Shown piece after piece: positions 1 through 59,430 of a DNA stretch of 64,000 nucleotides (position 1 is its first letter; the number at the start of each line of letters is the position of its first letter). Origin of the DNA: a virus; IMG/VR virus record IMGVR_UViG_3300031159_000072, positions 1 through 64,000 of that record. One strand, 5' to 3'. The position numbers and the translations under genes were made by a program. The notes below the pieces were generated by a model that worked only from the letters and a program-made list of their open reading frames with translations, had not been told where the DNA came from and did no database searches.

Positions 1-1044
1 TCAGGCCATCAACTCCCACGGTCGCACCATCTTCAGCCGCGCCACGACATCGTGCAGCCGGTGCCTGACGTGCGTGTAGCGCTGCGTCATGACCAAGCTC
101 GTGTGCCCCAGCAGCTCCTGCACGTCCCTTATGTCGTTGCCCGCGTCGAGCACGTTCGTTGCGAAGGTGTGCCTCATGTCATAGGGCCGGAAGTCCTCGA
201 TGCCGGCCGCGTTGATGACCTGCCGCAGGGTCTTGTGCAGCCCCGGAAAGTTGCCGTTCGTTCCGATAGTCCACGGCTGGCCGTCCCTCCGTCGGAATAC
301 CCGCCCTTCCCGGTGTGGAAGGGACAGCAGGACGGCCAGCGCCTTCGGGTGCAGCGGCACGATGCGTCGCCGCGTCTTGCCGCCCTTGCGCGTCGTGAAG
401 AGTACCGTCTTGCGCCCCAGATCTATTTGCTCCCAGGTGCAGCGCGCCGCTTCCCCCGTTCTGGCCCCCGTATAGAGCATGAAGACGATCATGGGGACGA
501 GATGCGGCGCCCGCCGCTTGGCCGCTGCCAGCAGCCGCTCAACCTCCGGTTCCGTCAGGCGCCGGGTCCGCTCGTCGTCGACCTTCGGCATCGGGACCTT
601 CGGCGGCTTCGGAAGCCAGTCGTGCTTGTAGGCCATGTTCAGGATAGCGGCCAGTGTAACCAAGCTTCGCTTCACTGACCCCGGCTTGTGTCCGGCGTGC
701 CGCACCCGCACCCAGTGGGCAATGACCTCCGGCGTAATGTCTGTCAGCTTGCGGCCCCCGAAGTACTTGCGCAGATCTCCGACGAGCCACCGATCGTGGT
801 AGGAGACACCCTCCGGCCTCCCCAGGTACAAGTCAGCAGCATCGTCGAAAGTCTTGGCGGCGCTACTAGCGGGCGCTGAGGGCGTCACGCCAAGTGTAAG
901 CTGAGCCTCTAATTCCTTGAGCTTTTGTCTGGCTTTCTCGACTTCATGCAGCTTGCAGCCAGTGGATTTCCGTACTTTCTTCCCGTTCCAGTACCCAACG
1001 ATCTGAAGGCGTCCACCACGGGCCTTCAGCTTCAGCTCCGACAT
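1..1044 (-). CDS. int: tyrosine recombinase / phage integrase
   Basis: 347 aa; C-terminal catalytic region with ...HDMRHTFATNVLDAGNDIRDVQELLGHTSLVMTQRYTHV (R..H..R..Y signature); TGA stop at 1-3. Confidence 0.9.
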   Translation of the reverse strand: MSELKLKARGGRLQIVGYWNGKKVRKSTGCKLHEVEKARQKLKELEAQLTLGVTPSAPASSAAKTFDDAADLYLGRPEGVSYHDRWLVGDLRKYFGGRKLTDITPEVIAHWVRVRHAGHKPGSVKRSLVTLAAILNMAYKHDWLPKPPKVPMPKVDDERTRRLTEPEVERLLAAAKRRAPHLVPMIVFMLYTGARTGEAARCTWEQIDLGRKTVLFTTRKGGKTRRRIVPLHPKALAVLLSLPHREGRVFRRRDGQPWTIGTNGNFPGLHKTLRQVINAAGIEDFRPYDMRHTFATNVLDAGNDIRDVQELLGHTSLVMTQRYTHVRHRLHDVVARLKMVRPWELMA

Positions 1045-3006: not shown

Positions 3007-3627
3007 TCAGTCGTCGGAGCGCTTGCGTCCGTCGTACCAGTGGTGCTCCTGAATGTGCTTCAGCACGGTTGGCAGCGTGCCCTTCACCTTCTCTTCCGTG
3101 CGGCCGTAGGTGGTCTTGGTGAGGCAGGCCGTCTCCCCGTCTGGCGAAACCAGGAGGGTGTACATGCCGTACTCCGATAGCGTGTGCTCGAACACGCCGT
3201 AACGCACCCACCCGTCGGCGTGCGGCTTGTAGTACTTGATTGTCTTCCGGATACCATCGAGCGTGCGCTCAAAGCTTTTCGGGTCGCCATAGGTCAGCGC
3301 GACCCTAAGCACCGGTTGGCGTGTTTCGCTCCAGATGCAGCCTGTCGTAAAACCCAGCTCGCGCATAACGCGCTCGCGCTCTCGGTAGACCTCCATGCTG
3401 ACGTCGACGCTCTCCGGCGACAGCAGGTAGGCGAGGCGATCATCCGGGCTCAGCGCTTCCAGCATCGCCCTGCCCAAGTCATCCATGAGCCTTTTCCGCT
3501 TGCCATCCAGACGGCGCAGCTTCCGGTCGATCGGCTCCCTCTCCTTGAGCAGCACCGCCACCTGATTATCCACGTCCGCGATCTTCGCTATCAGTTCCTC
3601 GATTGTCGTCGTGGTCACTGCCAGCAC
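3007..3627 (-). CDS. hypothetical phage protein
   Basis: 206-aa ORF, coiled-coil N-terminus, balanced composition. Confidence 0.55.
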   Translation of the reverse strand: MLAVTTTTIEELIAKIADVDNQVAVLLKEREPIDRKLRRLDGKRKRLMDDLGRAMLEALSPDDRLAYLLSPESVDVSMEVYRERERVMRELGFTTGCIWSETRQPVLRVALTYGDPKSFERTLDGIRKTIKYYKPHADGWVRYGVFEHTLSEYGMYTLLVSPDGETACLTKTTYGRTEEKVKGTLPTVLKHIQEHHWYDGRKRSDD

Positions 3628-3857
3628 TCGAATACGTTGTCTTGCTTCAGCTTCTGCTCCGGCACGTCGTCTGGCGGCAGGAGGGTGAACTCATCGGACG
3701 GGTCGTCTACGTACCTGCCATTGCTGTGGTGGAGGTAGCGCGAGCCACCAGCCACACTCTCGACAATCACAAAACCGTCCTTTGCGTGGATGATCTTGTG
3801 CTCAACACCCCGCCCATCCTTCACGATCGTGCCAGGCGGCAGCTTGGTGAAGTCCAT
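3615..3857 (-). CDS. small protein, FDEWE-tail family member A (ends ...NVFECWQ)
   Basis: 80 aa; N-terminal DFTKLPPGTIVKDGRGV... β-barrel-like signature; C-terminal Φ-F-E-C-W-Q; TGATG-coupled to the next member. Confidence 0.6.
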   Translation of the reverse strand: MDFTKLPPGTIVKDGRGVEHKIIHAKDGFVIVESVAGGSRYLHHSNGRYVDDPSDEFTLLPPDDVPEQKLKQDNVFECWQ

Positions 3858-4189
3858 CACTGCCACTCCTCGAACACGCTTCGCGCCGCGCCCGCCTCTC
3901 TCGCCGGCTCGTCCTGCGGCAGCCTGATGGTGTTCGGGTCGAGGTCCCTCGCCGAGGCGCCCTTGAAGCGGGGCTTCGGCGCCTCGTGGTCCACCTGCAT
4001 TTTGGGGCCACAGTAGCGCCCGCTCCGGGTCCACATCCACTGCCTCGAGCCGAGCGGGTCTGCGGCCCTCTGCGCCGCCACCCATTTTCCGGGCTCCACG
4101 TCAACGATCCGCACGGGTATTCTCCCGACACCCTTGAGCCGCACCATCGTGCCTATGGGCAGCTTGGTGAAGTCCACCGCCCGTCTCAT
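3857..4189 (-). CDS. small protein, FDEWE-tail family member B (ends ...SVFEEWQ)
   Basis: 110 aa; MRRAVDFTKLPIGTMVRLKG...; ATGA overlap with member C. Confidence 0.6.
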   Translation of the reverse strand: MRRAVDFTKLPIGTMVRLKGVGRIPVRIVDVEPGKWVAAQRAADPLGSRQWMWTRSGRYCGPKMQVDHEAPKPRFKGASARDLDPNTIRLPQDEPAREAGAARSVFEEWQ

Positions 4190-4515
4190 TGCCACTCCTC
4201 GAACACGCTGGCTCGCTTCTCGTCTTGCCGCCCCCCGTTGGCTGTAGCCCACTGCGGCACGCTGTCGGGGTCTAGGTTTACGCAGACCCCATGTTCACTG
4301 GTGGTCCGACTTTCGATCGGCGGCGGCTCCGATAGGCCCAATGAGTACCTGACGATCCTGCCGTCGGCTGCAGACCAGTATGTGTCCCCGCTCCTTTCTG
4401 CCCTTATCCGGACGCACCCGTCTCGCACGTCAATGATCTCGACGTTTCTTCCGCAGTAGTCCTTCACCACAGTGCCGATCGGAAGCGTGGTGAAGTCTGG
4501 CCGCTTCATTGACAT
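4186..4515 (-). CDS. small protein, FDEWE-tail family member C (ends ...SVFEEWQ)
   Basis: 109 aa; MSMKRPDFTTLPIGTVVKDYCGRNVEIIDVRDG... Confidence 0.6.
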   Translation of the reverse strand: MSMKRPDFTTLPIGTVVKDYCGRNVEIIDVRDGCVRIRAERSGDTYWSAADGRIVRYSLGLSEPPPIESRTTSEHGVCVNLDPDSVPQWATANGGRQDEKRASVFEEWQ

Positions 4516-4676
4516 TCCTCGATCACCGTCTTGATCCGTTCGTGATCCTTGTGTCTGATCCGCTTCCGCCGCACCGCCTTGGCCACCCGCAGCCAGAACC
4601 GCATGTCTCTGGTTTCGTGCAGGGCGAGCCAAGCGAGCGCGACCGTGTATCGACGGCGGCGCTTATTCCCACTCAT
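4506..4676 (-). CDS. small basic protein (56 aa) ending ...VIEECQ, overlapping neighbours
   Basis: MSGNKRRRRYTV...RHKDHERIKTVIEECQ; its ATG lies inside the FDEWE codons of member D and its stop overlaps the ATG of member C; tail resembles the family motif. Confidence 0.3.
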   Translation of the reverse strand: MSGNKRRRRYTVALAWLALHETRDMRFWLRVAKAVRRKRIRHKDHERIKTVIEECQ

Positions 4677-4920
4677 CGAAGACGGCGGTTTTTGGTGTGC
4701 GCTCGGCCTTAAGTTCGACCACACGAGCGCGCAGATGACAGGGGTAGTCCGGGTTATCCTCCTCGCCGACGAACAGTCCGTTCCATCTGTAGAAGAAGGT
4801 CTGTCTACCGTCGTGGATGGTGTAGTCACCGTCCTTATCGGGGCCACCCGTGAGCGTCACCATGCGGCCATCTATCGTCACGAACTGGTCGCCTTTTTCG
4901 GCTTTGCTCAGGTCGATCAT
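4663..4920 (-). CDS. small protein, FDEWE-tail family member D (ends ...AVFDEWE)
   Basis: 85 aa; EKGDQFVTIDGRMVTLTGGPDKDGDYTI (GDxV...GGP...MTV-like small β-barrel signature). Confidence 0.65.
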   Translation of the reverse strand: MIDLSKAEKGDQFVTIDGRMVTLTGGPDKDGDYTIHDGRQTFFYRWNGLFVGEEDNPDYPCHLRARVVELKAERTPKTAVFDEWE

Positions 4921-4923
4921 GGG

Positions 4924-5187
4924 TTACTCCCACTCATCGAAAAGTACGCGCTTCTCCAAGGGCTTCTCGTCATCCCCGACCTTCGCCGCCACGACGCGCC
5001 AATCTTCCGTTGTCCCGTACTTTTCCGGCAGGGCCGAGCAGATCCTCCCATCTGCCCCGTACCAGGCTGTTCCGGCTCCAGGGAGGAAGATGCAGAACGG
5101 GATATTGCTCTGGTCGACGTACGTTATCGTGCCGATCACCCCGTTCTTGCAGCGGACACGATCGCCAACCACGCATCCTTCGAGCAT
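4924..5187 (-). CDS. small protein, FDEWE-tail family member E (ends ...VLFDEWE)
   Basis: 87 aa; 3-nt spacer from neighbours; VVGDRVRCKNGVIGTITYVD...WYGADG. Confidence 0.65.
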   Translation of the reverse strand: MLEGCVVGDRVRCKNGVIGTITYVDQSNIPFCIFLPGAGTAWYGADGRICSALPEKYGTTEDWRVVAAKVGDDEKPLEKRVLFDEWE

Positions 5188-5190
5188 CGG

Positions 5191-5436
5191 TCACTCCCAC
5201 TCATCGAACACCTTGGACAGGCGGGTTAGCGTCATGGCAGATGCGTCGTCGACCAGCGCGTAGCCATCATGGTCGGAGCAGCAGTGAGGATCGCCATCGT
5301 AATGGAGCCAAAGCTCCTGGCCGTCGTCGAACTTGACCTTGTACGGTATCTCCAGGTCATCAACGTCGACGTCGATGACGATTCCCCTCACGCCGTTCTT
5401 GGCCATTACGCGCTCTCCTTTCTCGAGTATTCGCAT
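5191..5436 (-). CDS. small protein, FDEWE-tail family member F (ends ...KVFDEWE)
   Basis: 81 aa; EKGERVMAKNGVRGIVIDVD... Confidence 0.65.
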   Translation of the reverse strand: MRILEKGERVMAKNGVRGIVIDVDVDDLEIPYKVKFDDGQELWLHYDGDPHCCSDHDGYALVDDASAMTLTRLSKVFDEWE

Positions 5437-5439
5437 CGC

Positions 5440-5717
5440 TCACTCCCACTCGTCGAAGAGTGCCGGCCTTGCGGCCGGCGTCTCCTGCTCCTTCGGGTAG
5501 GGAAACTCCACGATGTTGAGGGGATGTTGCGTGCCTGGGTCGACACCGCCATAGGTCCCGTCGGCCCAGTACCATGTTGCGCCCCAGTTCCCGAAGGAGA
5601 TGGCGACGGGGACTCGGCCTGAGTACGGGTCGACCGCGGTGATCTCGCCAATCTGACCGTCTCTAGTGCGGACCTTGTCGCCGATCCGGCCCCCCCCCCC
5701 TCGAAGATGTTGAGCAT
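5440..5717 (-). pseudogene. FDEWE-tail family member G, frame-disrupted at a poly-G(10-11) tract (5690-5700); possible slippage site
   Basis: ATG at 5717 reads MLNIFEGGG, then the frame changes inside the homopolymer; the other frame continues GRIGDKVRTRDGQIGEITAVDP...WYWADG...ALFDEWE*. A run length of 9 or 12 would give one 92-aa member. Confidence 0.5.
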
Positions 5718-5720
5718 GCC

Positions 5721-7766
5721 TCACCGCCTGCCCAGCGCCTTCGACACCGCCCGGTCCGCCGAGAGCAGGTCCTTGTTGTCGACCCGGAAGCGCTCGCCGA
5801 GCAGCATGCGGGCGATGTTGTCGAGCACGCCTTTGGGCAGCTCGGCGAGGCTGTTCAGCACCTGGTAGCGCGGATAGAACTGGCTGACCGCATCGCTCAT
5901 GATGCCGATGCCAATCAGCTTCACGCCCGTCAGCTCGACATAGTCGACGACGTTGCGCAGCCAGTTGTAGATGTGCTGCCTGCCGAAGCTGCTCATGTGG
6001 GCGGGGTATCCATCCGACATGACCAGCAGGATCTTCCTGGCTTCGCGCCGCTTCATGAGGCGGCGGTGCGCCACGAGGACGGCGTCGCCGTCGGAGTTGT
6101 TGCCGCCGGCGCAGGCGGTGATGTGGCCCATCGCCCGTCTGGCTTCCCGCAGGCTCTCGTTGAAGTCCTTGAACACGTAGATGTCCAGCGGCTCCCAACG
6201 GCTGTACTTCTTGCCGTCGTTGATATCCCTCTGGTACTGCTTGGCACTGGCCTCGTCGAGGAAGCCGGACGAGTTGTTGAAGCCGAGGACCTCGAAGGGC
6301 ACGTTGACCTTCTCAAGAACCTCGGCCAGACAGATCGTCGCCTGCATGGCCAGGTACGCCGGCGAGCCGGACATCGAGCCAGACAGGTCGATCAGGATCG
6401 ACAGCGCCGTGTCGAGCGCCGGCGCCTCCTCCTTCATGCGGTAGACGTTCGACTCGCCGTTGTAGGCGGGGACCAGACGCTTCGTGTCGAGCCGGCCGTA
6501 TTCGTGGCCGCCCCGCCAGTCGGCCCGGAGCTTGGCCATGAGCGCCCGCTCCAGCTTGCGGCGCATCTGGTTCGTGCTGCCCTGCGCGTTCTCGAGGGCG
6601 CGCCGGTACATGCTGTCGCCAGACGGCCGGCTCAGGCGGTGGCCATACGAGAAGTTGTTCGAGTAGTCCGGCCGCCCTCTCTTGTCGACGCCGACGTACT
6701 TGCCGGGGCCGTCGTGGCGCGTGTGGATCTTGTCGTGCGACGTTGACCACGGCCTGTAGCCGGCTTCGATCGAAGTCGACGCATCGCCGAAAACGCGCTT
6801 GATGTTGAGTTCGGTGCCGATCGGCGTTGGCGGCGCTTCCCTGTCCGGATCGTAGACCCGGTCCACCTTCTCGGGGCCGGCGCCCACGCCGCCGGTGCTG
6901 CTGGTCGTATCCGGCGCCTTTGTCATCGTGCCGTCTGGCGCTTCGACCGTGTAGGTGTCGGGGCGCTCGCGCTTACCGGCCTCCGCGCCGTCGCTCCCGC
7001 TCTTGCCTCCGCCTTCGCCTCCGCCGCCGCCGCTGCGCTTCTCCCTCTCGTGCTCATGAACCTCCTTGCACAGACGCTCGGCCAGGTCGATCACGTCCTT
7101 CGTGTTGCGGCAGCCTTCGAGGGCGTCGATCCACAGCTCGACCTTGCGCTGGAGGTCGGCCGGCAGCTTGGCCTTGCACTCGGCGTGGCTGCGGGGCGTG
7201 TAGCCGTCGAGCGTGAATTCGTCGTAACCCGCCCGTTGGAAGCCCTCCCAGGTGATGGCGGCCGGGGCGATTATGCGCCAGTCCTCGACGGCCTCGGGCT
7301 GCTTGGGCAGGTGCTCCGTCAGGAACTCGTGGTTCACGGCGTGGTGGACCGCCGCCAGGTTCTCACGCGAGCCGACGTAGTCGGCGATGATGCGCTTCTC
7401 GATGCGCACGTCCTCAAGCGCGTTCAGGATGTGCGGGAAGAGCTTGTCGCCACGCTCCTCCGCGGCCCTCACCGCCGCCTTGTAGGCGGGCATGTCGGTG
7501 TGCCTGTTGTGTCCCGCTTCGTGGTCACAGTAGCCACGGCCGATCATCACTTGCGCCTTGGTCAGCGTCTTCGTCTGGTCGAGCGCCGGCAGGTAGATCG
7601 TGTCGCCGTCGGTGGCCGCTACCTCGCCCTGGAAGACGACGCGCAGCTTGCCGTCCCGGCTGAAGGTGCGGGCCGCCGCCGACGTCGCATCCATGAAGGT
7701 TCCGGCCGGCATGTAGCCTTCGGCCATCGCCTTGGCGACGGCGTTGTCTGAGCCTTTCTTGGCCAT
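5721..7766 (-). CDS. von Willebrand factor A (vWA) domain protein, CobT-like
   Basis: 681 aa from MAKKGSDNAV...; C-terminal vWA with LSILIDLSGSMSG (MIDAS D-x-S-x-S) ... LLVMSDGYPA; N-terminal YCDHEAGHNRHTD region resembles CobT; upstream 144 codons are GC artefact. Confidence 0.7.
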   Translation of the reverse strand: MAKKGSDNAVAKAMAEGYMPAGTFMDATSAAARTFSRDGKLRVVFQGEVAATDGDTIYLPALDQTKTLTKAQVMIGRGYCDHEAGHNRHTDMPAYKAAVRAAEERGDKLFPHILNALEDVRIEKRIIADYVGSRENLAAVHHAVNHEFLTEHLPKQPEAVEDWRIIAPAAITWEGFQRAGYDEFTLDGYTPRSHAECKAKLPADLQRKVELWIDALEGCRNTKDVIDLAERLCKEVHEHEREKRSGGGGGEGGGKSGSDGAEAGKRERPDTYTVEAPDGTMTKAPDTTSSTGGVGAGPEKVDRVYDPDREAPPTPIGTELNIKRVFGDASTSIEAGYRPWSTSHDKIHTRHDGPGKYVGVDKRGRPDYSNNFSYGHRLSRPSGDSMYRRALENAQGSTNQMRRKLERALMAKLRADWRGGHEYGRLDTKRLVPAYNGESNVYRMKEEAPALDTALSILIDLSGSMSGSPAYLAMQATICLAEVLEKVNVPFEVLGFNNSSGFLDEASAKQYQRDINDGKKYSRWEPLDIYVFKDFNESLREARRAMGHITACAGGNNSDGDAVLVAHRRLMKRREARKILLVMSDGYPAHMSSFGRQHIYNWLRNVVDYVELTGVKLIGIGIMSDAVSQFYPRYQVLNSLAELPKGVLDNIARMLLGERFRVDNKDLLSADRAVSKALGRR

Positions 7767-8062
7767 CAGTGCCTCGTGTCGGTTGTCGGTGCGTTCTGTC
7801 TGGACCAGATGGACGGGTTGCCCATCAGGTCGGTGGTCGGCGTGAAGCCGAGCTGGTGCATGGCCGTGTCCGCCGCCATCGCCCGTTGCTGGGCGAGGGC
7901 GACCTGCTTCTGGAGCCGGTGGTAGGCGACCTCGATGTCGGTGCCCAGGAGACCGCACTGCACCCAGCCGAGGCTGAGGCGCAGGCCACGCCTGCTCCAG
8001 CTTATCTTGAAGCCGTGGAACCGTGTCGTGAACACGACGTAGGCAGTAAAGGCGCGGCTCAT
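7766..8062 (-). CDS. hypothetical small protein (98 aa)
   Basis: Starts MSRAFTAYVVFTTRFHGF...; its stop overlaps the vWA start (TGATG). Confidence 0.45.
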   Translation of the reverse strand: MSRAFTAYVVFTTRFHGFKISWSRRGLRLSLGWVQCGLLGTDIEVAYHRLQKQVALAQQRAMAADTAMHQLGFTPTTDLMGNPSIWSRQNAPTTDTRH

Positions 8063-8250
8063 GGCCTCCTTCCCGCTTGCGCTCGCTGCCTTTCGTAATC
8101 CGGGTGCTCCCTGCTGTTGCACCCCATCCGCACAGACCACTGGCTGAACGGGTTGTGCAGGGCGACCAGGCCGCAGTGCTTGCAGACAGACCGCCCAATG
8201 CGCTTGTTCAGCTCCATGTTGTGCGGCTCGATCTTGAAGGCGCGGCTCAT
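8059..8250 (-). CDS. hypothetical small protein (63 aa), possible Zn-binding (CKHC)
   Basis: MSRAFKIEPHNMELNKRIGRSVCKHCG...; shares the ggcgcggctcATG start context with the downstream gene. Confidence 0.4.
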   Translation of the reverse strand: MSRAFKIEPHNMELNKRIGRSVCKHCGLVALHNPFSQWSVRMGCNSREHPDYERQRAQAGRRP

Positions 8251-8286
8251 GCCGCGCCTCCCTCGTGCATCTTACGCACCCCTGCC

Positions 8287-10281
8287 TCACTTGAACGTCC
8301 GGTTCACGTACTCGTTGATGCGCGCCCGGTCCTGCTTCGTGGCCTTGGATAGGATCGTCATGTCGAGGGCGAACTCGACGGCGTCCTTCGGCTTCGGCGT
8401 CAGGGGCAGGAAGTGGACAACCGCCTCGGCCAGGGCGGCCAGGCCACGGGGGCTGACCGTCTGGCAGGTGTCACCCTGGATGAAGCCCTGGCGGACCTCG
8501 GTGGCGAAGTTGGTGATCTGCTCCGCCATGTCGGCGCTGAGCGCCGGCACCAGCTCCTGGAGCAGCTTCGCCTCTTCCTCCTTCTTGAGGTACTCGACCT
8601 CGATCCAGGTGGTGAAGCGGTCGAGCAGCGCCTGGCTCTGCGGGCGGGCGCCCTGGTAGGCGCCGAACTCGTCGCCCTGCCCCTGCGTGTTGGCCGTGGC
8701 CACGACCCGGAACATCGGGTTCGGCACGATCAGACGGCCGCCGTCCTCGGCCAGCAGCAGCCCCTTGTCCTCGAGCATGCGCTGGAAGACGTAGGCCACG
8801 TCTGGCCGGATGAAGTCGATCTCGTCGCAGAGCAAGAGGCAGGGCTGCTGCATGGCCTGCACGACGATGCCCTCGACGAACTCGGACTTGGTGACGCCGC
8901 TCTCGTTCTTGAGGACGTCACGGCCGAGCAGGTCCATCCGGGTGATCTCGCTGTCGAAGTTGATGCGGACCATCGGATAGGAAAGCCGGGCGCAGACCTG
9001 CTCGACGAGCGTCGACTTGCCGGTGCCGGTGTGGCCGTGCATCCAGACCTTCTTGTTGCGGGCGATGGCCCACAGCAGGGAGGCCAGCTTGCCGGGCTTG
9101 AACTTGTAGTTCTCGTCCTTGATCGGCACGAGCGGATGCGGGCCGTCCCACTCGAAGGTTGGCACGTCGAAGTCGAGCAGCTTCTGCTTCTTGCCGGTCG
9201 GCGCCGGGAAGACCTCGTTGGCGTTGCGCCAGACGACCTTGCCCGACGGGTAGGCGCCAGACGCGCTGGCCGTCACGGTCGTCGGCGTGGTTGGCACGGA
9301 CGCCAGCTTCCGGCGCAGCTCGTTGACCTCACGCTCCTTGACCGTGATGATCTCGCCCGACTTGGCCAGCGCATCGAAGAGCTGGTTGATGTCCGTCCAC
9401 TTGCCGGACGTGGCCTGCCCCAGCATGGCGTTGATGCCGACGGCGAAGCCCTTGTCGATCGTGATCCTTTCGGCGCTCGGAGCGGGGGCTTCGGTGGCGG
9501 TGGCGGCGTCGGCCATCTTGTAGGCTTCTCCGTAGGTCTCGGTGACGTACTTCATGATCCGCTGGGCGATCTCGCCAGACGGCTCTTCTGCGTCCTCCAG
9601 GTAGTCCGGGTCCTTGCCGCCCTCCTCACGCAGCTTCACGATGCCGGCAACGCTCTTGGTGTCGTCGCCCCAGGCGTTCCGGAACTGGTCGAGGACGGCC
9701 GCCTTGGCGGCCTTGATGTCGTCGGCGTCGATCTTCCCTTCGTGCCCTTCGGCGATACGCTGGCTCATGATGCTGCGCAGCATCTTGCGCACGAGGGCGT
9801 CGAAGCAGTCGGTGGCTTCCCCGGCGGAGGCGTCAGAGAGGTTGGGCTTCTCGATCATTGGTTCTGTTGTTGTGTGCGAGTTGATGTCGTCTACGATGCG
9901 GGCGACGCTTCCTGGCCCGAGCCTGTCGGGCCAACCAAAGGCGAAGCCGGACTTGCTTGATGCGTCGACGCGGCTAAATGCGGCCGGCGCTTTAATGGCC
10001 TTCAGGACATCGCCCCAGTTCACATGCTCAACGAGCAGTGCGAGCAGAACCTCCCAGGCCAGGGAGTCCCGCACGCCCGAGAACGTCGGCCGGACGTTGT
10101 GCTGGTTCGGGCCTGTGCCGCAGATGGGGCTCGCTTCCACGGCGGCCTTGATGTCGGCGGCGATGTTACGCTTGTTTGTCTTGAACTTCTCCGTCACCTG
10201 GCTCCTGAGCCAGGCGCGCTTCTCTTCCAGGCGGGACGAGAGCGCCCGCTTGGCTTCGGCGTAGTCGAGTTTGTAGGTCAT
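8287..10281 (-). CDS. AAA+ ATPase, CobS/MoxR-like (AAA_5), with a ~330-aa N-terminal extension
   Basis: Walker A HGHTGTGKST, Walker B LLLCDEIDF, sensor/arginine region ...VVATANTQG; partner of the downstream vWA gene. Confidence 0.75.
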   Translation of the reverse strand: MTYKLDYAEAKRALSSRLEEKRAWLRSQVTEKFKTNKRNIAADIKAAVEASPICGTGPNQHNVRPTFSGVRDSLAWEVLLALLVEHVNWGDVLKAIKAPAAFSRVDASSKSGFAFGWPDRLGPGSVARIVDDINSHTTTEPMIEKPNLSDASAGEATDCFDALVRKMLRSIMSQRIAEGHEGKIDADDIKAAKAAVLDQFRNAWGDDTKSVAGIVKLREEGGKDPDYLEDAEEPSGEIAQRIMKYVTETYGEAYKMADAATATEAPAPSAERITIDKGFAVGINAMLGQATSGKWTDINQLFDALAKSGEIITVKEREVNELRRKLASVPTTPTTVTASASGAYPSGKVVWRNANEVFPAPTGKKQKLLDFDVPTFEWDGPHPLVPIKDENYKFKPGKLASLLWAIARNKKVWMHGHTGTGKSTLVEQVCARLSYPMVRINFDSEITRMDLLGRDVLKNESGVTKSEFVEGIVVQAMQQPCLLLCDEIDFIRPDVAYVFQRMLEDKGLLLAEDGGRLIVPNPMFRVVATANTQGQGDEFGAYQGARPQSQALLDRFTTWIEVEYLKKEEEAKLLQELVPALSADMAEQITNFATEVRQGFIQGDTCQTVSPRGLAALAEAVVHFLPLTPKPKDAVEFALDMTILSKATKQDRARINEYVNRTFK

Positions 10282-10334
10282 TCGCCTCTCGTGGTGGTTG
10301 GGATGGGGCCGGGATTGGCCCGGCCCGAACCCCC

Positions 10335-10351
10335 AACCCCCTTCGGGGGTT
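10335..10351. repeat. GC tetraloop hairpin repeat AACCCCC-TTCG-GGGGGTT (copy 1), preceded by a second hairpin GGGCCGGG-ATTG-GCCCGGCCC
   Basis: Direct read; the motif recurs at 15913, 19478 and 19566. Confidence 0.6.
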
Positions 10352-10471
10352 ACTGCCTCCGCGCCTCAGAGAGTCGGCGCTGAATGCGTTGCCCGGTGGG
10401 AGACCTCCAGAAGGTCCGGCGCTGCCGGCGGTAGCGACGGATCTGCTTGTGCCGCGCTCGCTTGTTGGCCA

Positions 10472-11074: not shown

Positions 11075-11920
11075 TCAGCGAATGTTCACGAAGGGCGTGG
11101 CGGAGCCAGGCAGCATGGTCGTCGGCAGCACGCCGTTCCAGCGCTCGGCAGCGATGAGCTGCACGAGGTCGGGGTTATCCCGCAGCGCCCTGCCGCGGGC
11201 GGCGATGGCTGCCGCCTCGGCTTCGCCCCGTGCCCTCGTGGCGTAGGCTTCAGCGTCGGCCGCCATCTTGGTGGCCGTGGCCCTGGCCTCCGCCTCGGCG
11301 ACCTGGCGCTGGGCGTTGACCTTCACCTGCTCCAGCTCCTGGCGGGCGCGTTTCACGTCCGCCTCGGCCTTGGCCGCCGCCTCGACGGCCGCTTCGTAGG
11401 CTTCGGAGAAGTCTATGTTCTCGATCTGGATCGACTCGATCCGGACCCAGTCGTTTGACATGCCGGAGCGCACGGCCTCGAGCACGTCGGTGCCGAGCTG
11501 CTCACGCTTGGCCACCACGTCTGCGGCGGTGTAGTCGCCGAAGACTTCCTTGACCCTCTTGTAGACGACGGGGATCACGAGCTTCTCGGCGTAGTCGACG
11601 CCGACCGTGCTGTAGACGTCGAGCACATGAGCCGGGTTGAGCGAATAGTTCACCGTGATCCGGCTCGTCGCCTGCTGGATGTCCCTCGAATAGGAGACCA
11701 CATCGGGGAACTCTGCCTTCTGCGTCTGGATGCTCATGTCCCGGACGCTGTCGATGATCGGCAGTTTGAAGCCGAGGCCAGGCTCGGCGATACCGATGAC
11801 GGCGCCGTTGCGGGTGATGACGCCTCGATGCCCCTCCGGCACCGTGTACCAGGAGCCGAAGAGAATGGAGAGGCCGAGCAGGCCGGCGATGCCGGCGACG
11901 ATGAGAGATACGATACGCAT
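11075..11920 (-). CDS. SPFH/band-7 (prohibitin/HflK-C-like) membrane protein
   Basis: N-terminal TM; PHB domain (GHRGVITRNGAV..., IENIDFSEAYEAAVEAAAKAE...) with an Ala/Glu-rich coiled-coil tail. Confidence 0.8.
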   Translation of the reverse strand: MRIVSLIVAGIAGLLGLSILFGSWYTVPEGHRGVITRNGAVIGIAEPGLGFKLPIIDSVRDMSIQTQKAEFPDVVSYSRDIQQATSRITVNYSLNPAHVLDVYSTVGVDYAEKLVIPVVYKRVKEVFGDYTAADVVAKREQLGTDVLEAVRSGMSNDWVRIESIQIENIDFSEAYEAAVEAAAKAEADVKRARQELEQVKVNAQRQVAEAEARATATKMAADAEAYATRARGEAEAAAIAARGRALRDNPDLVQLIAAERWNGVLPTTMLPGSATPFVNIR

Positions 11921-11923
11921 GGG

Positions 11924-12052
11924 TCAGTTGCCCTTGTTACGTCGAGTGCTTCTGGTGCGGTCGGCCCCGTCGATCCACATCAGGATCTTGTAGAGGCCGA
12001 ACGCCAAGACGGCGGCGACAACGAGACCGCCGATGATTGCGAGCGCGATCAT
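11924..12052 (-). CDS. small single-TM protein (may extend to 12205)
   Basis: MIALAIIGGLVVAAVLAFGLYKILMW...; immediately upstream of the SPFH gene (NfeD-like position). Confidence 0.35.
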   Translation of the reverse strand: MIALAIIGGLVVAAVLAFGLYKILMWIDGADRTRSTRRNKGN

Positions 12053-12113
12053 GCTTGGCTTGTGCGTTGGCTGCGTGGCTTCCGCCTGTACGAGCCCTTG
12101 CCCTTGCGCGGCT

Positions 12114-12416
12114 TCACGCGCTTGGGCTTGAGGGCTCGGAGGGCTTTGGCGATGGGGTTTCGTGGTTTCCGCATTCGACGGGTTCGCATATGATCCTCCC
12201 GTCACGATCCAGACGTGGCGTCAGGCCACTGAATGCGTCGGCCCGGACGTAGTGAACGCCGGTGCGCCGATCGACGTAGAGCAGTAGACCGGAGCGTTTT
12301 TTGGGGCCGTCTGTATCGTCCCTTCCGAATAACCCGCACTCACTGCTGGCTGTGGCAATGATCCGGCACAGCAGGTAGCCGGTCACGATGCCGAGCGCGA
12401 TTGTCATTGCACTCAT
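12114..12416 (-). CDS. hypothetical membrane-anchored protein
   Basis: 100 aa; N-terminal hydrophobic segment IALGIVTGYLLCRIIATASS. Confidence 0.4.
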   Translation of the reverse strand: MSAMTIALGIVTGYLLCRIIATASSECGLFGRDDTDGPKKRSGLLLYVDRRTGVHYVRADAFSGLTPRLDRDGRIICEPVECGNHETPSPKPSEPSSPSA

Positions 12417-12469
12417 GACTCGTCTTCCGTAGGGCGGGGCCGCAGCCCCGCCCGGTCAACGTGCTTCCG

Positions 12470-14167
12470 TTACGCCGCCAGGTCCTCTTGGAACTGCTTG
12501 GCGACGAGCACCGTCCGCTCAATGTGGCTGGCGTCGACGGGCTTGCCCTCGGACTTGGCGAGCGACTGAGCCAGACGGACGGTCGTCTTGATCTGCCGGC
12601 CGTTGATCTCGAAGCGGGCCAGCGCCTTCGGGTCGAGGCCGGTTACGCCGGCGGCGCTGAGCAGGTTGCGCCAGACGGCTTCCCGGTGGGACTCATCGAG
12701 CGGCGGGTACTTGAGGGCGATCGAGATGCGGCTGTGGAACGCCTGGTCGAAGTTCCTGACCCGGTTCGTGGTCAGGAACATGACGCCCTGGTGGTATTCC
12801 AGCAGACGCAGGAAGACGCCGACCATGGCGTTGCGCGTGATGTCGTGCTCGTCACGGGCCTCCAGGAAGATGTCGGCTTCGTCGAGGAGGACCACGGCGT
12901 TCCAGATCTGCGCCATGTCGAGGATCTGGCGCAGGCGATCCTCGAGTTCGTCGGGGCGTGTGCCCAGCTCGCCAACCGACACGCTGTAGAGTGGGCGGTG
13001 CAGCATCTCGGCGACGGCCTCGGCGGTCAGCGTCTTGCCGGTGCCGGGCGTGCCGTGCAGCAGGAAGATGCAGCCGCCGCCCTTGCCCTCGATGACGTCG
13101 GTGAAGGTGCGGCCGGCGTTCTGCACGAGGGCAAGGATCAGGCTCTTCTTGTCGGGGTCGAGGACGAGCGTGTCGAAGGCAGCGTCGTTGAACTCGATGG
13201 GCCGCAGGTGCTCGACGCGCATCTCACCCCACTTCTTGCAGGCGAAGCTGAAACCGTGGACGAACGGCCACGTCCGCCAGAGCTGGCTGTCCGGCAGCTC
13301 CTCAAAGGGGTCGCCAGACGAGTCGTCGTCGTCGAAGTACGAGCGGTCCCGGAAGTACTGGTCGTCGATCCGCTTCATGCTGTTGAGGTCGACCATGACC
13401 CGGCCCTCGGCGCGGAATGTCTGCGTCGACCACCAGTTCTTGCGGATCAGGTGCCCCGAGTAGTGGAGGTAGTTGGCGCCGATGGCGACGTCTCGGAAGA
13501 TGCGCCCGCGCTTGGTGAGGGTCTCACGATCGGCGTCGCTGAGCGGCCGGACGGGCAGCTCGTCGAACCTCACGGTGCCCTTGAACCAACTGATGCGGAA
13601 GTCGTGCTTCCGGTGGATGAACTTTGAGCCGTTCGTGTCGACGACGGTGATGATGATGTTGAAGTAGCGTCCGAACCACGAAGTGCCGTACTCTGCGATC
13701 TCGACCTCGCCGCCGACCAGGGTGTCCCGGTGTGGCCCAACGATCTTTTGCCCCTTCTGGAAGACGTACCAGAGGAAGTCGAAGGTGATAGCACCGTCGG
13801 CGATCATGGCGTCGATGGTGGCCTGTGTATCGGCGAAGCGCTTTTCCAGCTCGGCGAGGAGGCGGCGGAGGCTGTCGAAGTCGCGGTCGCGTTTCGTTGT
13901 CTCAGCGTACTGACGCATGGAGACGATGTGCCGGAAAAGGCTTTGCACCGGCGCCCGAGGGGCGTCTTGATACCAAACCCCATCCCGGTCCGCGTTCCTC
14001 AGCCATGATCTGGTGTAGACGTCGGTCACGACGACGTACTCGATCGTGTCGATGACCTTGCCGTCCCTGTCCTTCAGCTCCTCGGTCTCGAAGCGGAAGC
14101 CCATCTTCTTCGCGGCGTCATTCGTGGCCGTGGCGACGGTCCCGTCTGCGAGCTGCGCAACGTTCAT
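12470..14167 (-). CDS. AAA ATPase (classical clade) with an unrecognised ~330-aa N-terminal domain
   Basis: C-terminal half has Walker A LLHGTPGTGKT, Walker B VVLLDEADIF, sensor-1 FLTTNR, SRH arginine FDQAFHSR. Confidence 0.75.
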   Translation of the reverse strand: MNVAQLADGTVATATNDAAKKMGFRFETEELKDRDGKVIDTIEYVVVTDVYTRSWLRNADRDGVWYQDAPRAPVQSLFRHIVSMRQYAETTKRDRDFDSLRRLLAELEKRFADTQATIDAMIADGAITFDFLWYVFQKGQKIVGPHRDTLVGGEVEIAEYGTSWFGRYFNIIITVVDTNGSKFIHRKHDFRISWFKGTVRFDELPVRPLSDADRETLTKRGRIFRDVAIGANYLHYSGHLIRKNWWSTQTFRAEGRVMVDLNSMKRIDDQYFRDRSYFDDDDSSGDPFEELPDSQLWRTWPFVHGFSFACKKWGEMRVEHLRPIEFNDAAFDTLVLDPDKKSLILALVQNAGRTFTDVIEGKGGGCIFLLHGTPGTGKTLTAEAVAEMLHRPLYSVSVGELGTRPDELEDRLRQILDMAQIWNAVVLLDEADIFLEARDEHDITRNAMVGVFLRLLEYHQGVMFLTTNRVRNFDQAFHSRISIALKYPPLDESHREAVWRNLLSAAGVTGLDPKALARFEINGRQIKTTVRLAQSLAKSEGKPVDASHIERTVLVAKQFQEDLAA

Positions 14168-32681: not shown

Positions 32682-32750
32682 GCCTTGTGGCGGGGAGCCT
32701 TGGAGGCCGGCGGGCCTCATAAGCCCGTCCTCGGTGGTTCGATTCCACCC
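32679..32750 (+). ncRNA. tRNA-like element 1 (CAT anticodon loop, canonical T-arm, 3' CCA; degenerate D-arm)
   Basis: Anticodon stem-loop CGGGC-CTCATAA-GCCCG, T-arm GGTGG-TTCGATT-CCACC, acceptor GGCGGGG/CTCCGCT with two G·U pairs, then A-CCA; the D-region is only ~13 nt. Confidence 0.4.
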
Positions 32751-32752
32751 TC

Positions 32753-32828
32753 CGCTACCAATGCGGCGTTGGTCACTCTGGTGAGGGCCTCGGCCTTCCA
32801 AGCCATTGAGGCGAGTTCGATTCTCGCA
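32753..32828 (+). tRNA. tRNA-like gene, 76 nt, Gly(TCC)-like anticodon loop
   Basis: Perfect 7-bp acceptor GCGGCGT/ACGCCGC, discriminator T, CCA; T-arm GCGAG-TTCGATT-CTCGC at canonical positions 49-65; anticodon loop CTTCCAA but only 3 of 5 stem pairs. Confidence 0.55.
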
Positions 32829-32841
32829 CGCCGCTCCAGAC

Positions 32842-59083: not shown

Positions 59084-59430
59084 GCCCGAAGGCCAAGCGG
59101 CGCCTCACCGCGGAACTCGTCAAGGCGCAGGGTGGCGTCTGCTTCTACTGCGGGCGCTCGTTCGGCAAGTGCGGCCGCACGCCGACGCTCGACCACAAGC
59201 TGCCGCAATGGCTCGGCGGCACCTGGGACCGCCGCAATCTCGTGGCCGCCTGCCGCAAGTGCAACTTCGACAAGGGGCCGCTCGACGCCGAGACCTACAT
59301 GCGCGTCCGAGACGACGAGAAGATCCTCAAGCTGGAAGTGCGCAAGGCCCACGCGATGGCGCGGGAAGCGATGAAGTGGGGAGTGGGAAGGCGCCAGCTC
59401 GATTGGGCGGCGCTGGGAGGCGCCGCATGA
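59080..59430 (+). CDS. HNH endonuclease
   Basis: CFYCGR...LDHKLPQWLGG...NLVAACRKCN; ATGA-coupled to the primase. Confidence 0.7.
   Translation: MSPKAKRRLTAELVKAQGGVCFYCGRSFGKCGRTPTLDHKLPQWLGGTWDRRNLVAACRKCNFDKGPLDAETYMRVRDDEKILKLEVRKAHAMAREAMKWGVGRRQLDWAALGGAA

What the first reader, a model, noticed from the sequence alone, without database searches (positions are those of the whole stretch)
5721..10281. Translationally coupled CobS/MoxR-like AAA+ ATPase and CobT-like vWA protein with two tiny ORFs between them
A 664-aa AAA+ protein (AAA_5-type Walker A and B in its C-terminal half, plus a ~330-aa N-terminal extension) is followed by two small ORFs (63 and 98 aa) that share the same start context, and then a 681-aa protein with a MIDAS-containing vWA domain and a CobT-like N-region.

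Phage-borne CobS/CobT pairs are known but their role in phages is unresolved. MoxR-vWA pairs are also the cores of NTP-dependent conflict systems. Sitting directly next to the diversified small-protein array, this pair may be the effector machinery the array feeds into.
Basis: partly seen in the sequence, partly recalled or inferred. Interest (0 to 1): 0.55.

Follow-up and report, generated by a model that had tools for sequence, protein, structure and literature searches.

The report
Phage CobS/CobT-like ATPase and adaptor
This prophage, from an already described phage family, carries the well-known phage copy of the two "cobalt chelatase" helper genes, and its sequence looks more like an ATP-driven protein-remodelling or protease machine than a vitamin B12 enzyme.

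Summary
On the minus strand lie a 664-aa CobS-like AAA+ gene (8287-10281), two real small genes (63 aa, 8059-8250; 98 aa, 7766-8062) and a 681-aa CobT-like vWA gene (5721-7766).

The window is an integrated CRP-810-type phage. That family is published and nearly always carries cobS and cobT, so this is a new member of a known kind.

In 76 of 76 relatives cobT follows cobS, usually directly. The space between them is a variable insertion site:
- The 63-aa gene is a promiscuous phage gene (phrog_7020).
- The 98-aa gene recurs in only one closer relative.

The pair keeps the cobaltochelatase motor/adaptor features: ATPase motifs, shaft and MIDAS. It fails the CobS/CobT equivalog cut-offs, and no CobN-sized ORF lies nearby.

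The CobT-like N-domain keeps an invariant HExxH...NxxEDxxxE motif. This motif is absent from all 121 cellular CobT sequences examined.

My best reading is a CobN-independent AAA+/vWA/zinc-site machine acting on a protein target. Its function remains untested.

Neither defence-system membership nor a link to the neighbouring small-protein array is supported. That array is absent from every relative checked.

The parts
8287..10281 (-). cobS-like gene, 664 aa. N-terminal extension is aa 1-378 (9148-10281); CobS-type AAA+ module is aa 379-664.
   Evidence: AAA_5 E 2.6e-18. TIGR01650 CobS scores 179 bits, below the 558 cut-off. Aligns to Brucella CobS 9ujv residues 34-314, E 1.8e-49. phrog_249.
9148..10281 (-). 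N-terminal extension of the CobS-like protein. It is conserved in the long-CobS phage family and absent from cellular CobS and from the short phage CobS proteins.
9010..9036 (-). Walker A, GHTGTGKST. Walker B DE is at 8821-8826, sensor-1 N531 at 8689-8691, arginine finger R555 at 8617-8619, sensor-2 R612 at 8446-8448.
   Evidence: Residue-by-residue alignment to Brucella CobS read against the roles given in preprint 10.64898/2026.07.21.739949. Coordinates verified.
8059..8250 (-). 63-aa small gene, member of phrog_7020. It is a mobile small phage gene inserted between cobS and the 98-aa gene.
   Evidence: GC3 0.84. phrog_7020 E 5e-17. Homologues in 120 unrelated phage records; in the two regions inspected (Cronobacter phage CR8, Nitrincola phage 1M3-16) they sit among mostly hypothetical small genes with no AAA/vWA neighbour. 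Absent from the closer relative L095.
7766..8062 (-). 98-aa small gene, lineage-restricted. Its start overlaps the 63-aa stop (ATGA) and its stop overlaps the cobT start (TGATG).
   Evidence: GC3 0.89. Only one other cluster among 1.84 billion representatives (P0362, 43% identity). That homologue sits in the same place between cobS (67% identity) and cobT (57% identity) in L095. No hit in the phage records.
8049..8062 (-). 14-nt direct repeat ATGAGCCGCGCCTT. The second copy is at 8237-8250. The two copies bracket the 63-aa gene.
   Evidence: Exactly 2 matches in the window, against 0.02 expected.
5721..7766 (-). cobT-like gene, 681 aa. N-domain is aa 1-235 (7062-7766), Gly/acidic linker about aa 236-388, shaft plus vWA is aa 389-656 (5799-6602).
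   Evidence: CobT_C 116 bits and CobT 56 bits. TIGR01651 scores 120 bits, below the 759 cut-off. The family profile aligns end to end with Brucella CobT 9uka_G, E 2.2e-77.
7509..7523 (-). HEAGH (aa 82-86), a zincin-type HExxH motif. The partner motif NALEDVRIE (aa 115-123) is at 7398-7424.
   Evidence: H82, E83, H86, N115, E118, D119 and E123 are invariant in 35 homologues. Present in 57 of 59 correctly extracted IMG/VR relatives (the other two are L081, which lacks it, and L009, which reads HEAAH). Also kept in ICP2, SSU5, RHEph10, cyanophage P-RSM6 and a Rhodanobacter plasmid. Replaced by SMALR-type residues in Brucella CobT and in 120 of 120 cellular CobT N-domains.
6375..6389 (-). MIDAS motif DLSGS (aa 460-464) of the vWA domain.
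   Evidence: Aligns with the Brucella CobT MIDAS residues D422/S424/S426. D460, S462, G463 and S464 are invariant in A2. Coordinates verified.
10282..10471 (-). 190-nt intergenic region upstream of cobS, with GC-rich stem-loops at about 10296-10350 and a GAGAGG ribosome-binding site.
   Evidence: Sequence. The fold is not significantly more stable than shuffles (z = -1.5). No consensus promoter or terminator was found. Its role is unknown.

Best explanation
This is the mobile-element (phage-type) version of the CobS/CobT motor-adaptor pair, carried by an integrated CRP-810-type phage.

Inferred mechanism, by homology to the solved Brucella CobST complex: the CobS-like protein forms an ATP-hydrolysing hexameric ring. 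The CobT-like protein docks on it through its N-domain and inserts its conserved shaft segment into the ring pore. It presents a vWA/MIDAS surface to a client.

Unlike cellular CobT, the phage adaptor keeps an invariant HExxH...NxxEDxxxE metal site in its N-domain. I therefore think the machine works without CobN on a protein client of host or phage origin, remodelling or cleaving it. A metal-handling role for that site is the alternative. The likely timing is the early or replication phase.

The roughly 350-aa N-terminal extension of the ATPase is a family-specific domain of unknown fold, probably for client or partner binding.

The two small genes between cobS and cobT are not core parts. 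The 63-aa gene is a mobile phage gene inserted at a known variable spot. The 98-aa gene is a lineage-restricted companion of unknown role.

Shown: homology, motif conservation, synteny and distribution. Inferred: complex formation, CobN independence, peptidase or metal-site activity, and the client.
For: 1. Motor features are conserved. Walker A and B, sensor-1, arginine finger, sensor-2 and the shaft-contacting D455 and R492 all align with Brucella CobS (one search read).
2. Adaptor features are conserved. The family profile aligns end to end with Brucella CobT (E 2e-77), including the CobS-binding R76/D80 equivalents (R77 invariant, D81 nearly invariant), shaft residues W417, G424, D427 and R430 (invariant) and the MIDAS motif.
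3. HExxH plus NxxEDxxxE is invariant across homologues with about 35% mean column identity, and is kept in pairs only 17-22% identical: ICP2, SSU5, RHEph10, cyanophage P-RSM6 'peptidase' and a Rhodanobacter plasmid. It is absent from 121 of 121 cellular CobT N-domains.
4. The AF2 model of the N-domain (pLDDT 93.6) places HEAGH on the helix that follows a three-strand sheet, and NALEDVRIE on a later helix. This matches the topology the preprint describes as M48C-peptidase-like.
5. No CobN-sized ORF is present in the window or in 857 kb from 86 related loci. Both proteins fall below the equivalog cut-offs.
6. The same pair sits in phages and over 1,100 plasmids of E. coli, Klebsiella, Yersinia pestis, Acinetobacter and Vibrio cholerae. 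By my own knowledge these hosts lack the aerobic CobN route.
7. The pair lies in early or replication regions: next to primase (ICP2), DNA polymerase III alpha (SSU5, RHEph10), clamp and clamp loader (P-RSM6) and a toprim gene (plasmid). Here it lies in the leftward arm, far from the virion genes.
8. Iyer et al. 2021 independently described a phage MoxR-vWA pair whose vWA protein carries an N-terminal metallopeptidase domain.
Against: - No experiment exists for any phage cobST.
- No Pfam peptidase family matches the N-domain, even at E up to 5.
- Foldseek of the high-confidence N-domain model against the PDB gave no significant hit. The zincin assignment therefore rests on the motif, its conservation and the preprint's statement about cellular CobT_N.
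- The phage CobS-like protein lacks the last roughly 14 residues that form part of the CobS-CobT_N interface in Brucella, so docking may differ.
- The host of this prophage is unknown. It looks alphaproteobacterial (DUF1491 in the flank, my own knowledge; the family's known hosts are alphaproteobacteria), and many such hosts carry CobN, so use of host CobN is not excluded for this particular phage.
- A conserved HExxH could serve metal delivery rather than proteolysis.
Confidence: 0.55

Rival explanations
1. Auxiliary metabolic gene. Phage CobS/CobT replace or supplement the host motor and adaptor, and drive host CobN to insert cobalt. This raises cobalamin supply for B12-dependent enzymes during infection (proposal of Liu et al. 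2021).
For: The nearest solved and curated relatives are true CobS and CobT. The motor, shaft and MIDAS features that build the CobSTN holoenzyme are conserved. One relative, the oyster Cobavirinae phage, carries a ribonucleotide reductase gene in the same arm. The likely host group often makes B12 aerobically (my own knowledge).
Against: Scores are far below the equivalog cut-offs. No CobN-sized ORF lies near any of 86 related loci. No ribonucleotide reductase or other B12-dependent enzyme was found among the large ORFs that were scanned against PHROGs or Pfam. The pair is common in phages and phage-plasmids of hosts without CobN (host status from my own knowledge). The hypothesis explains neither the invariant HExxH site that cellular CobT has lost nor the 350-aa extension on CobS.
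Confidence: 0.15
2. Virion assembly chaperone and protease. The AAA+/vWA pair helps fold, assemble or proteolytically mature structural proteins. This was proposed for jumbo-phage MoxR-vWA-peptidase pairs and for the MoxR-vWA system of Acidianus two-tailed virus.
For: Iyer et al. 2021 make this proposal for the same architecture. This phage has very large virion proteins, including a 3077-aa ORF, that might need help.
Against: In this phage, in CRP-810, ICP2, SSU5, RHEph10 and P-RSM6 the pair sits with early or replication genes and not in the structural module. It also occurs on a plasmid with no virion genes in the region inspected, beside DUF3150 and toprim genes.
Confidence: 0.15
3. Prophage-encoded conflict or defence system. 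A MoxR-vWA NTP-dependent core is expressed in the lysogen, the adjacent diversified small proteins act as inputs or decoys, and the result is exclusion of other phages.
For: The pair lies in the integrase-proximal arm of a prophage, on the same strand as the LuxR-type regulator and the integrase. It is followed directly by seven paralogous small genes with a shared acidic-aromatic C-terminal tail. One of these carries a poly-G tract whose length differs between samples. Acidic ligands are what MIDAS sites bind (my own knowledge).
Against: PADLOC gives only P-loop-level hits. bpMoxR falls below its cut-off. The pair is nearly universal in the phage family and is present in strictly lytic phages such as ICP2 and the T4-like cyanophages. 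The FDEWE-tail array is absent from all 80 IMG/VR relatives and from CRP-810.
Confidence: 0.07

Closest known systems
cobS/cobT (gp06/gp07) of Roseobacter phage CRP-810 and the CRP-810-type phage family (PMC11288001)
   Same: Same gene pair in the same order, in the same arm together with a LuxR-type regulator and an integrase. CobS is 47% and CobT 36% identical. The six family core genes match: TerL 59%, portal 69%, major capsid protein 64%, AAA_24 ATPase 60%, PD-(D/E)XK nuclease 48%, primase-polymerase 39%. Long CobS proteins (617 aa in CRP-810).
   Different: CRP-810 has no genes between cobS and cobT, and no FDEWE-tail array. The N-terminal extension is too diverged to align by tblastn (the match starts at residue 298). 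This phage has 65% GC and comes from a different, unidentified host.
Aerobic cobaltochelatase CobS/CobT of Brucella melitensis (PDB 9ujv, 9uka; preprint 10.64898/2026.07.21.739949)
   Same: AAA+ motifs and shaft-contact residues. The CobT layout of N-domain, disordered linker, shaft and vWA with MIDAS. CobS-binding R/D residues in CobT_N.
   Different: CobS here is twice as long because of an N-terminal extension, and it lacks the last roughly 14 residues. CobT_N keeps HExxH where cellular CobT reads SMALR. Scores are below the equivalog cut-offs. No CobN lies nearby.
CobS plus 'peptidase' pair of T4-like cyanophages and the MoxR-vWA-metallopeptidase pair of jumbo phages (PMC8651126; PMC7824862)
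   Same: A CobS-like AAA+ gene beside a protein with an N-terminal HExxH domain, a linker and a vWA/MIDAS domain. P-RSM6 has HEVGH, NVTEDARIE and DWSGS. Function untested.
   Different: Gene order is reversed (cobT then cobS). CobS is short (about 380 aa, no N-extension). Identity is only about 26-31% over the AAA+ module.
CobT/CobS-like pairs of SSU5-type phage-plasmids, Vibrio phage ICP2 and Rhizobium phage RHEph10
   Same: HExxH plus vWA/MIDAS adaptor beside a CobS-like ATPase, located next to replication genes.
   Different: Order is cobT then cobS. CobS is 371-411 aa. Adaptors are 580-836 aa and alignable to this one by tblastn only over the vWA half.
Other motor-adaptor pairs: NorQ/NorD, CbbQ/CbbO, RavA/ViaA
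   Same: AAA_5-class hexameric motor plus a vWA/MIDAS adaptor that acts on a client protein. The preprint's discussion makes this comparison. There are weak sequence matches to NorQ, CbbQ and NorD.
   Different: Far more distant (E 1e-9 to 1e-5). Their clients are known (cNOR, Rubisco). No HExxH N-domain is reported for them in the text I read.

Membership tests
Aerobic cobaltochelatase CobS/CobT (CobNST, EC 6.6.1.2) | Scores above the curated equivalog cut-offs (TIGR01650 CobS, TIGR01651 CobT) | tested here: not met
   179.4 bits against 558.55, and 120.4 bits against 759.05.
Aerobic cobaltochelatase CobS/CobT (CobNST, EC 6.6.1.2) | CobS AAA+ catalytic set (Walker A/B, sensor-1, arginine finger, sensor-2) and shaft-contact residues | tested here: met
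   All align with Brucella CobS (one search read). Coordinates verified.
Aerobic cobaltochelatase CobS/CobT (CobNST, EC 6.6.1.2) | CobT layout: N-domain, disordered linker, shaft, vWA with MIDAS | tested here: met
   End-to-end profile alignment to 9uka_G, E 2.2e-77. MIDAS is DLSGS. Shaft residues are invariant.
Aerobic cobaltochelatase CobS/CobT (CobNST, EC 6.6.1.2) | CobT N-domain with the degenerate (non-HExxH) site seen in cellular CobT | tested here: not met
   The window has HEAGH. Brucella CobT and 120 of 120 cellular CobT N-domains read RG[LH]GD[SA][MI]AL[RK].
Aerobic cobaltochelatase CobS/CobT (CobNST, EC 6.6.1.2) | A CobN partner and cobalamin-pathway gene context | tested here: not met
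   The only ORF over 1000 aa in the window (3077 aa) has no Pfam hit. No reading frame of CobN size was found in 857 kb from 86 related loci. The host chromosome could not be examined, so a distant host cobN is not excluded.
Phage cobST cluster / CRP-810-type phage family | cobS-like and cobT-like genes adjacent on one strand | tested here: met
   76 of 76 related loci with downstream sequence. The gap is 100 nt or less in 53 of them.
Phage cobST cluster / CRP-810-type phage family | The six core genes used to define the family (portal, TerL, major capsid protein, PD-(D/E)XK nuclease, AAA ATPase, primase-polymerase) | tested here: met
   All six match CRP-810 at 39-69% identity, as do the LuxR-type regulator and the integrase.
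MoxR-vWA NTP-dependent conflict systems / catalogued anti-phage defence systems | Match to bpMoxR (PF20030) or to any PADLOC system model beyond the P-loop | tested here: not met
   bpMoxR scores 13.9 bits against a cut-off of 27. PADLOC gives only IetA/mad8 P-loop stretches at E 1.6e-5 or weaker on the ATPase, and nothing on the other three proteins.
MoxR-vWA NTP-dependent conflict systems / catalogued anti-phage defence systems | A conserved third component or effector linked to the pair | tested here: not met
   Genes between and after the pair differ from relative to relative.
Zincin (gluzincin-type) metallopeptidase domain | HExxH on a helix plus a downstream acidic ligand helix, both conserved | tested here: met
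   H82, E83, H86, N115, E118, D119 and E123 are invariant. The model predicts helices at 70-89 and 109-129 after a three-strand sheet.
Zincin (gluzincin-type) metallopeptidase domain | Detectable sequence or fold similarity to a known peptidase family | tested here: inconclusive
Zincin (gluzincin-type) metallopeptidase domain | Zinc binding and peptidase activity | not testable with these tools
   Needs biochemistry.

The most novel reading that the evidence does not exclude
The genes widely annotated in phage and marine-virome studies as the B12 'auxiliary metabolic genes' cobS/cobT may not be chelatase subunits at all. They may be a mobile-element-wide, CobN-independent AAA+ motor plus vWA adaptor with a live zinc (HExxH) site. 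Such a machine would remodel or cleave a protein client during early infection or establishment. Cellular CobT would then be the inactivated relative. In the CRP-810-type lineage the motor has also gained a roughly 350-aa domain of unknown fold.
Probability: 0.5. Interest if true: 0.6.

Novelty: new member of a known kind. Interest (0 to 1): 0.38.

Why it matters
cobS and cobT are routinely counted as vitamin B12 auxiliary metabolic genes in marine viromes, and they are reported as core genes of T4-like cyanophages.

There is a clean sequence split. HExxH is invariant in mobile-element copies and absent from all 121 cellular CobT sequences examined. The recently solved CobSTN structure provides a frame for reading that split. 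Together they give a direct, testable reason to doubt the metabolic annotation, and they point to specific mutants (H82, E83, H86; Walker B E487).

CRP-810 and its host are in culture, so the test is feasible.

For this window itself the result is ordinary: a known gene pair in a known phage family.

Tried and rejected
- **Megablast of the locus against phage records:** no match.
- **The search for related loci with the single CobS-like protein:** nothing in genome or viral contigs.
- **Second genome scan, using the alignment:** It returned only two irrelevant Oscillospiraceae loci, L007 and L008. The host was therefore not identified and its cobN status is unknown.
- **CobT N-domain:** Foldseek against the PDB found nothing, and Pfam gave no peptidase family at permissive E-values.
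- **Structure prediction with locus-derived sequences:** I repeated it with database homologues.
- **Promoter/terminator scan and RNA fold of the region upstream of cobS:** nothing significant.
- **One literature search was wasted** on 'cobs' as in corn cobs. I found no paper with an experiment on phage cobST.
- **Rejected idea, conserved accessory subunits:** I considered whether the two small ORFs are conserved accessory subunits. I rejected this for the 63-aa gene and left it open for the 98-aa gene, which has one syntenic homologue.
- **Rejected idea, longer cobT gene:** I considered whether the 825-aa stop-to-stop frame is the real cobT. I rejected it on GC3.

Full report
**1. Observation**

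The 664-aa protein (8287-10281) has an AAA_5 domain at residues 412-556 (E 2.6e-18). Its Walker A is GHTGTGKST and its Walker B is DE.

The 681-aa protein (5721-7766) matches CobT_C at 116 bits and the CobT N-region at 56 bits. It carries the MIDAS motif DLSGS.

The window is 65% GC, so third-position GC discriminates reading frames well:
- 63-aa ORF: 0.84
- 98-aa ORF: 0.89
- Overlapping 825-aa and 174-aa extended frames: 0.54

An independent gene caller on metagenome contigs called the same four genes.

The shared start context is real. ATGAGCCGCGCCTT occurs only at the two small-ORF starts, against 0.02 expected by chance.

Coupling holds for the 63/98 junction (ATGA overlap) and the 98/cobT junction (TGATG overlap). 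cobS and the 63-aa ORF are separated by 36 nt with a ribosome-binding site.

**2. Setting**

The window is an integrated temperate phage. Its landmarks are:
- integrase at 1-1044 (minus strand)
- a leftward arm running to about 17.8 kb that contains the finding
- terminase, portal, tail fibres, major capsid protein and a 3077-aa ORF on the plus strand
- a Cas4-type nuclease, an AAA_24 ATPase and a primase-helicase

The identical CobS-like protein occurs on nine metagenome contigs. On one of them, the genes beyond the integrase are DUF1491, DUF2934 and GlgE, which look like host chromosome.

All six core genes that define the published CRP-810-type family match Roseobacter phage CRP-810 at 39-69% identity. 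The LuxR-type regulator (43%) and the integrase (34%) also match. The CRP-810 paper states that almost all members carry cobS and cobT, and that their function is uncertain.

**3. Relatives and the small ORFs**

A family alignment recovered 80 IMG/VR loci. In 76 of the 76 loci that have downstream sequence, cobT follows cobS. The gaps are distributed as follows:

| Gap between cobS and cobT | Loci |
|---|---|
| 100 nt or less | 53 |
| 100-300 nt | 11 |
| more than 300 nt | 12 |

The inserted ORFs are unrelated to one another and to the two ORFs here. The junction is therefore a variable insertion site.

*The 63-aa gene.* It belongs to phrog_7020 (E 5e-17). It has homologues in 120 unrelated phage records. 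In the two regions I inspected (Cronobacter phage CR8 and Nitrincola phage 1M3-16) they lie among mostly hypothetical small genes with no AAA or vWA neighbour.

*The 98-aa gene.* It has no hit in the phage records. Among 1.84 billion representative proteins only one other cluster matches (43% identity). That homologue lies in the same position, with the same overlap onto cobT, in a closer relative (CobS 67%, CobT 57% identical). That relative has no 63-aa gene.

My reading is that the 98-aa gene is a lineage-restricted companion. The 63-aa gene came in later, and the 14-nt direct repeat that brackets it is the scar. The insertion history is inference.

**4. Comparison with true cobaltochelatase**

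The nearest solved proteins are Brucella CobS (E 1.8e-49) and Brucella CobT (family profile E 2.2e-77, aligned end to end). I read the alignments against the CobSTN cryo-EM preprint.

Conserved:
- Walker A and B, sensor-1 N531, arginine finger R555 and sensor-2 R612
- the shaft-contacting D455 and R492
- the CobT shaft segment (W417, G424, D427 and R430 are invariant in the family)
- the CobS-binding R77 and D81 of the CobT N-domain
- the MIDAS motif

Different:
- Both proteins score far below the NCBIfam equivalog cut-offs.
- The ATPase carries a roughly 350-aa N-terminal extension. This extension is conserved across about 600-680-aa homologues. It is absent from the 328-aa cellular CobS and from the short CobS proteins of ICP2, SSU5 and RHEph10. 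It models confidently (pLDDT 84.8) but has no fold relative.
- The ATPase lacks the last roughly 14 residues of Brucella CobS.
- The CobT-like N-domain keeps HEAGH (aa 82-86) and NALEDVRIE (aa 115-123).

These last two motifs are invariant in 35 database homologues. They are present in 57 of 59 IMG/VR relatives. They are retained in very distant pairs:
- ICP2 gp41, SSU5_049 and RHEph10 gp043
- the cyanophage P-RSM6 'peptidase'
- a Rhodanobacter plasmid vWA protein

Brucella CobT reads SMALR at the HExxH position. None of 120 further cellular CobT N-domains has HExxH.

**5. What it most likely does**

By homology, a hexameric ATPase ring engages the adaptor's shaft, and the adaptor presents a vWA/MIDAS face to a client. 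In cellular CobSTN that client is CobN.

For the phage version I favour a CobN-independent machine acting on a protein client, with the N-domain metal site active in proteolysis or metal handling. My confidence is 0.55. The supporting points are:
- the HExxH split between mobile-element and cellular copies
- no CobN-sized ORF in the window or in 857 kb of related loci
- no ribonucleotide reductase or other B12-dependent enzyme among the large ORFs scanned
- the pair's abundance in phages and over 1,100 plasmids of enterobacteria, Acinetobacter and Vibrio cholerae, hosts that by my own knowledge lack the aerobic CobN route
- its recurrent position beside replication genes

Iyer et al. described the same architecture in jumbo phages as a MoxR-vWA pair with an N-terminal metallopeptidase.

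The weak points are:
- No Pfam peptidase family matches the N-domain.
- Foldseek found no relative for the N-domain model.
- No experiment exists for any phage cobST.
- This phage's host is unknown and may well have CobN.

**6. Rivals**

*CobN hijack (Liu et al.).* This remains possible for hosts that make B12, but it explains neither the HExxH conservation nor the extension on CobS. Confidence 0.15.

*Virion assembly.* This fits the architecture but not the genomic position or the plasmid copies. Confidence 0.15.

PADLOC and bpMoxR are negative. The pair is near-universal in the family and is present in lytic phages. The neighbouring array of seven paralogues ending in FDEWE/FEEWQ is private to this phage. 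Confidence 0.07.

**7. Verdict**

The identification is right, and the conflict or array-effector interpretation is not supported.

The locus is a new member of a known kind: the cobST pair of a CRP-810-type prophage.

The useful by-product is the clean HExxH distinction between mobile-element and cellular CobT. This makes the long-standing 'phage cobST is a B12 gene' annotation directly testable.

**8. Limits**

- Flanks of related loci are 6-10 kb or less.
- Statements about which hosts lack CobN rest on my own knowledge, not on a tool result.

Noticed in passing
window 3615-5717 (minus strand): An array of seven paralogous small genes lies directly after cobT: 81, 87, 85, 109, 110 and 80 aa, plus one disrupted copy. 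All end in [VL]F[DE][EC]W[EQ] followed by the stop codon. No ORF with this tail exists in the 80 IMG/VR relatives or in CRP-810.
   Followed up: partly
window 5690-5700 (C-run on the plus strand, G-run in the gene): This is the only homopolymer of 9 nt or more in the 64 kb. It sits 6 codons into the first array member (ATG at 5717). G11 here puts the gene out of frame; G12 or G9 would give a full FDEWE-tail paralogue. The same tract is G10 in two independent metagenome contigs (L003, L004); L003 is otherwise 99.985% identical over 20.3 kb. This is either phase variation or homopolymer sequencing error.
   Followed up: partly
window 11075-14167 (minus strand): Upstream of cobS lie a second ATPase (565 aa, DUF7025 plus AAA), a DUF6440 protein, a Band_7/SPFH protein (281 aa) and several small hydrophobic, probably membrane-spanning, ORFs (42, 84 and 92 aa). 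None of these matches CRP-810. They may form a membrane-associated module.
   Followed up: no
window 42165-51398 (plus strand): A 3077-aa ORF has no Pfam hit. Its last roughly 830 residues are 42% identical to CRP-810 gp34/gp35, which lie next to 'internal virion protein D'. It is probably a giant ejected or internal virion protein.
   Followed up: no
window 32689-32838 (plus strand): tRNA-Met (CAT) and tRNA-Gly (TCC) sit side by side just upstream of the major capsid gene.
   Followed up: no
window 10296-10350 (minus strand): GC-rich nested stem-loops without a T-run lie in the 190-nt gap upstream of cobS. The region as a whole does not fold significantly better than shuffled sequence (z = -1.5).
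   Followed up: partly
L096 3241-8873 (Rhodanobacter denitrificans plasmid NZ_CP088981.1): A plasmid cluster reads: CobS-like AAA ATPase (326 aa), hypothetical protein, DUF3150 protein, vWA protein with HETGH, NVVEDIRME and a DRSGS MIDAS motif, then a toprim protein. The HExxH-type pair therefore also lives on non-phage mobile elements.
   Followed up: partly
CobT-like family profile positions 87-138 (window CobT aa ~100-150): There is a weak profile match (E 0.005, 18.8 bits) to the anti-CRISPR AcrIIA26 (PDB 9zq6_B), over the helix that carries the NxxEDxxxE motif. It is probably chance.
   Followed up: no
window ~59080-59430 (plus strand): Just after the primase-helicase gene there is an HNH-endonuclease-like sequence (…CFYCGRSF…LDHKLPQWLGG…CRKCNFDKG…). 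It lies within a longer listed ORF (58477-59430).
   Followed up: no
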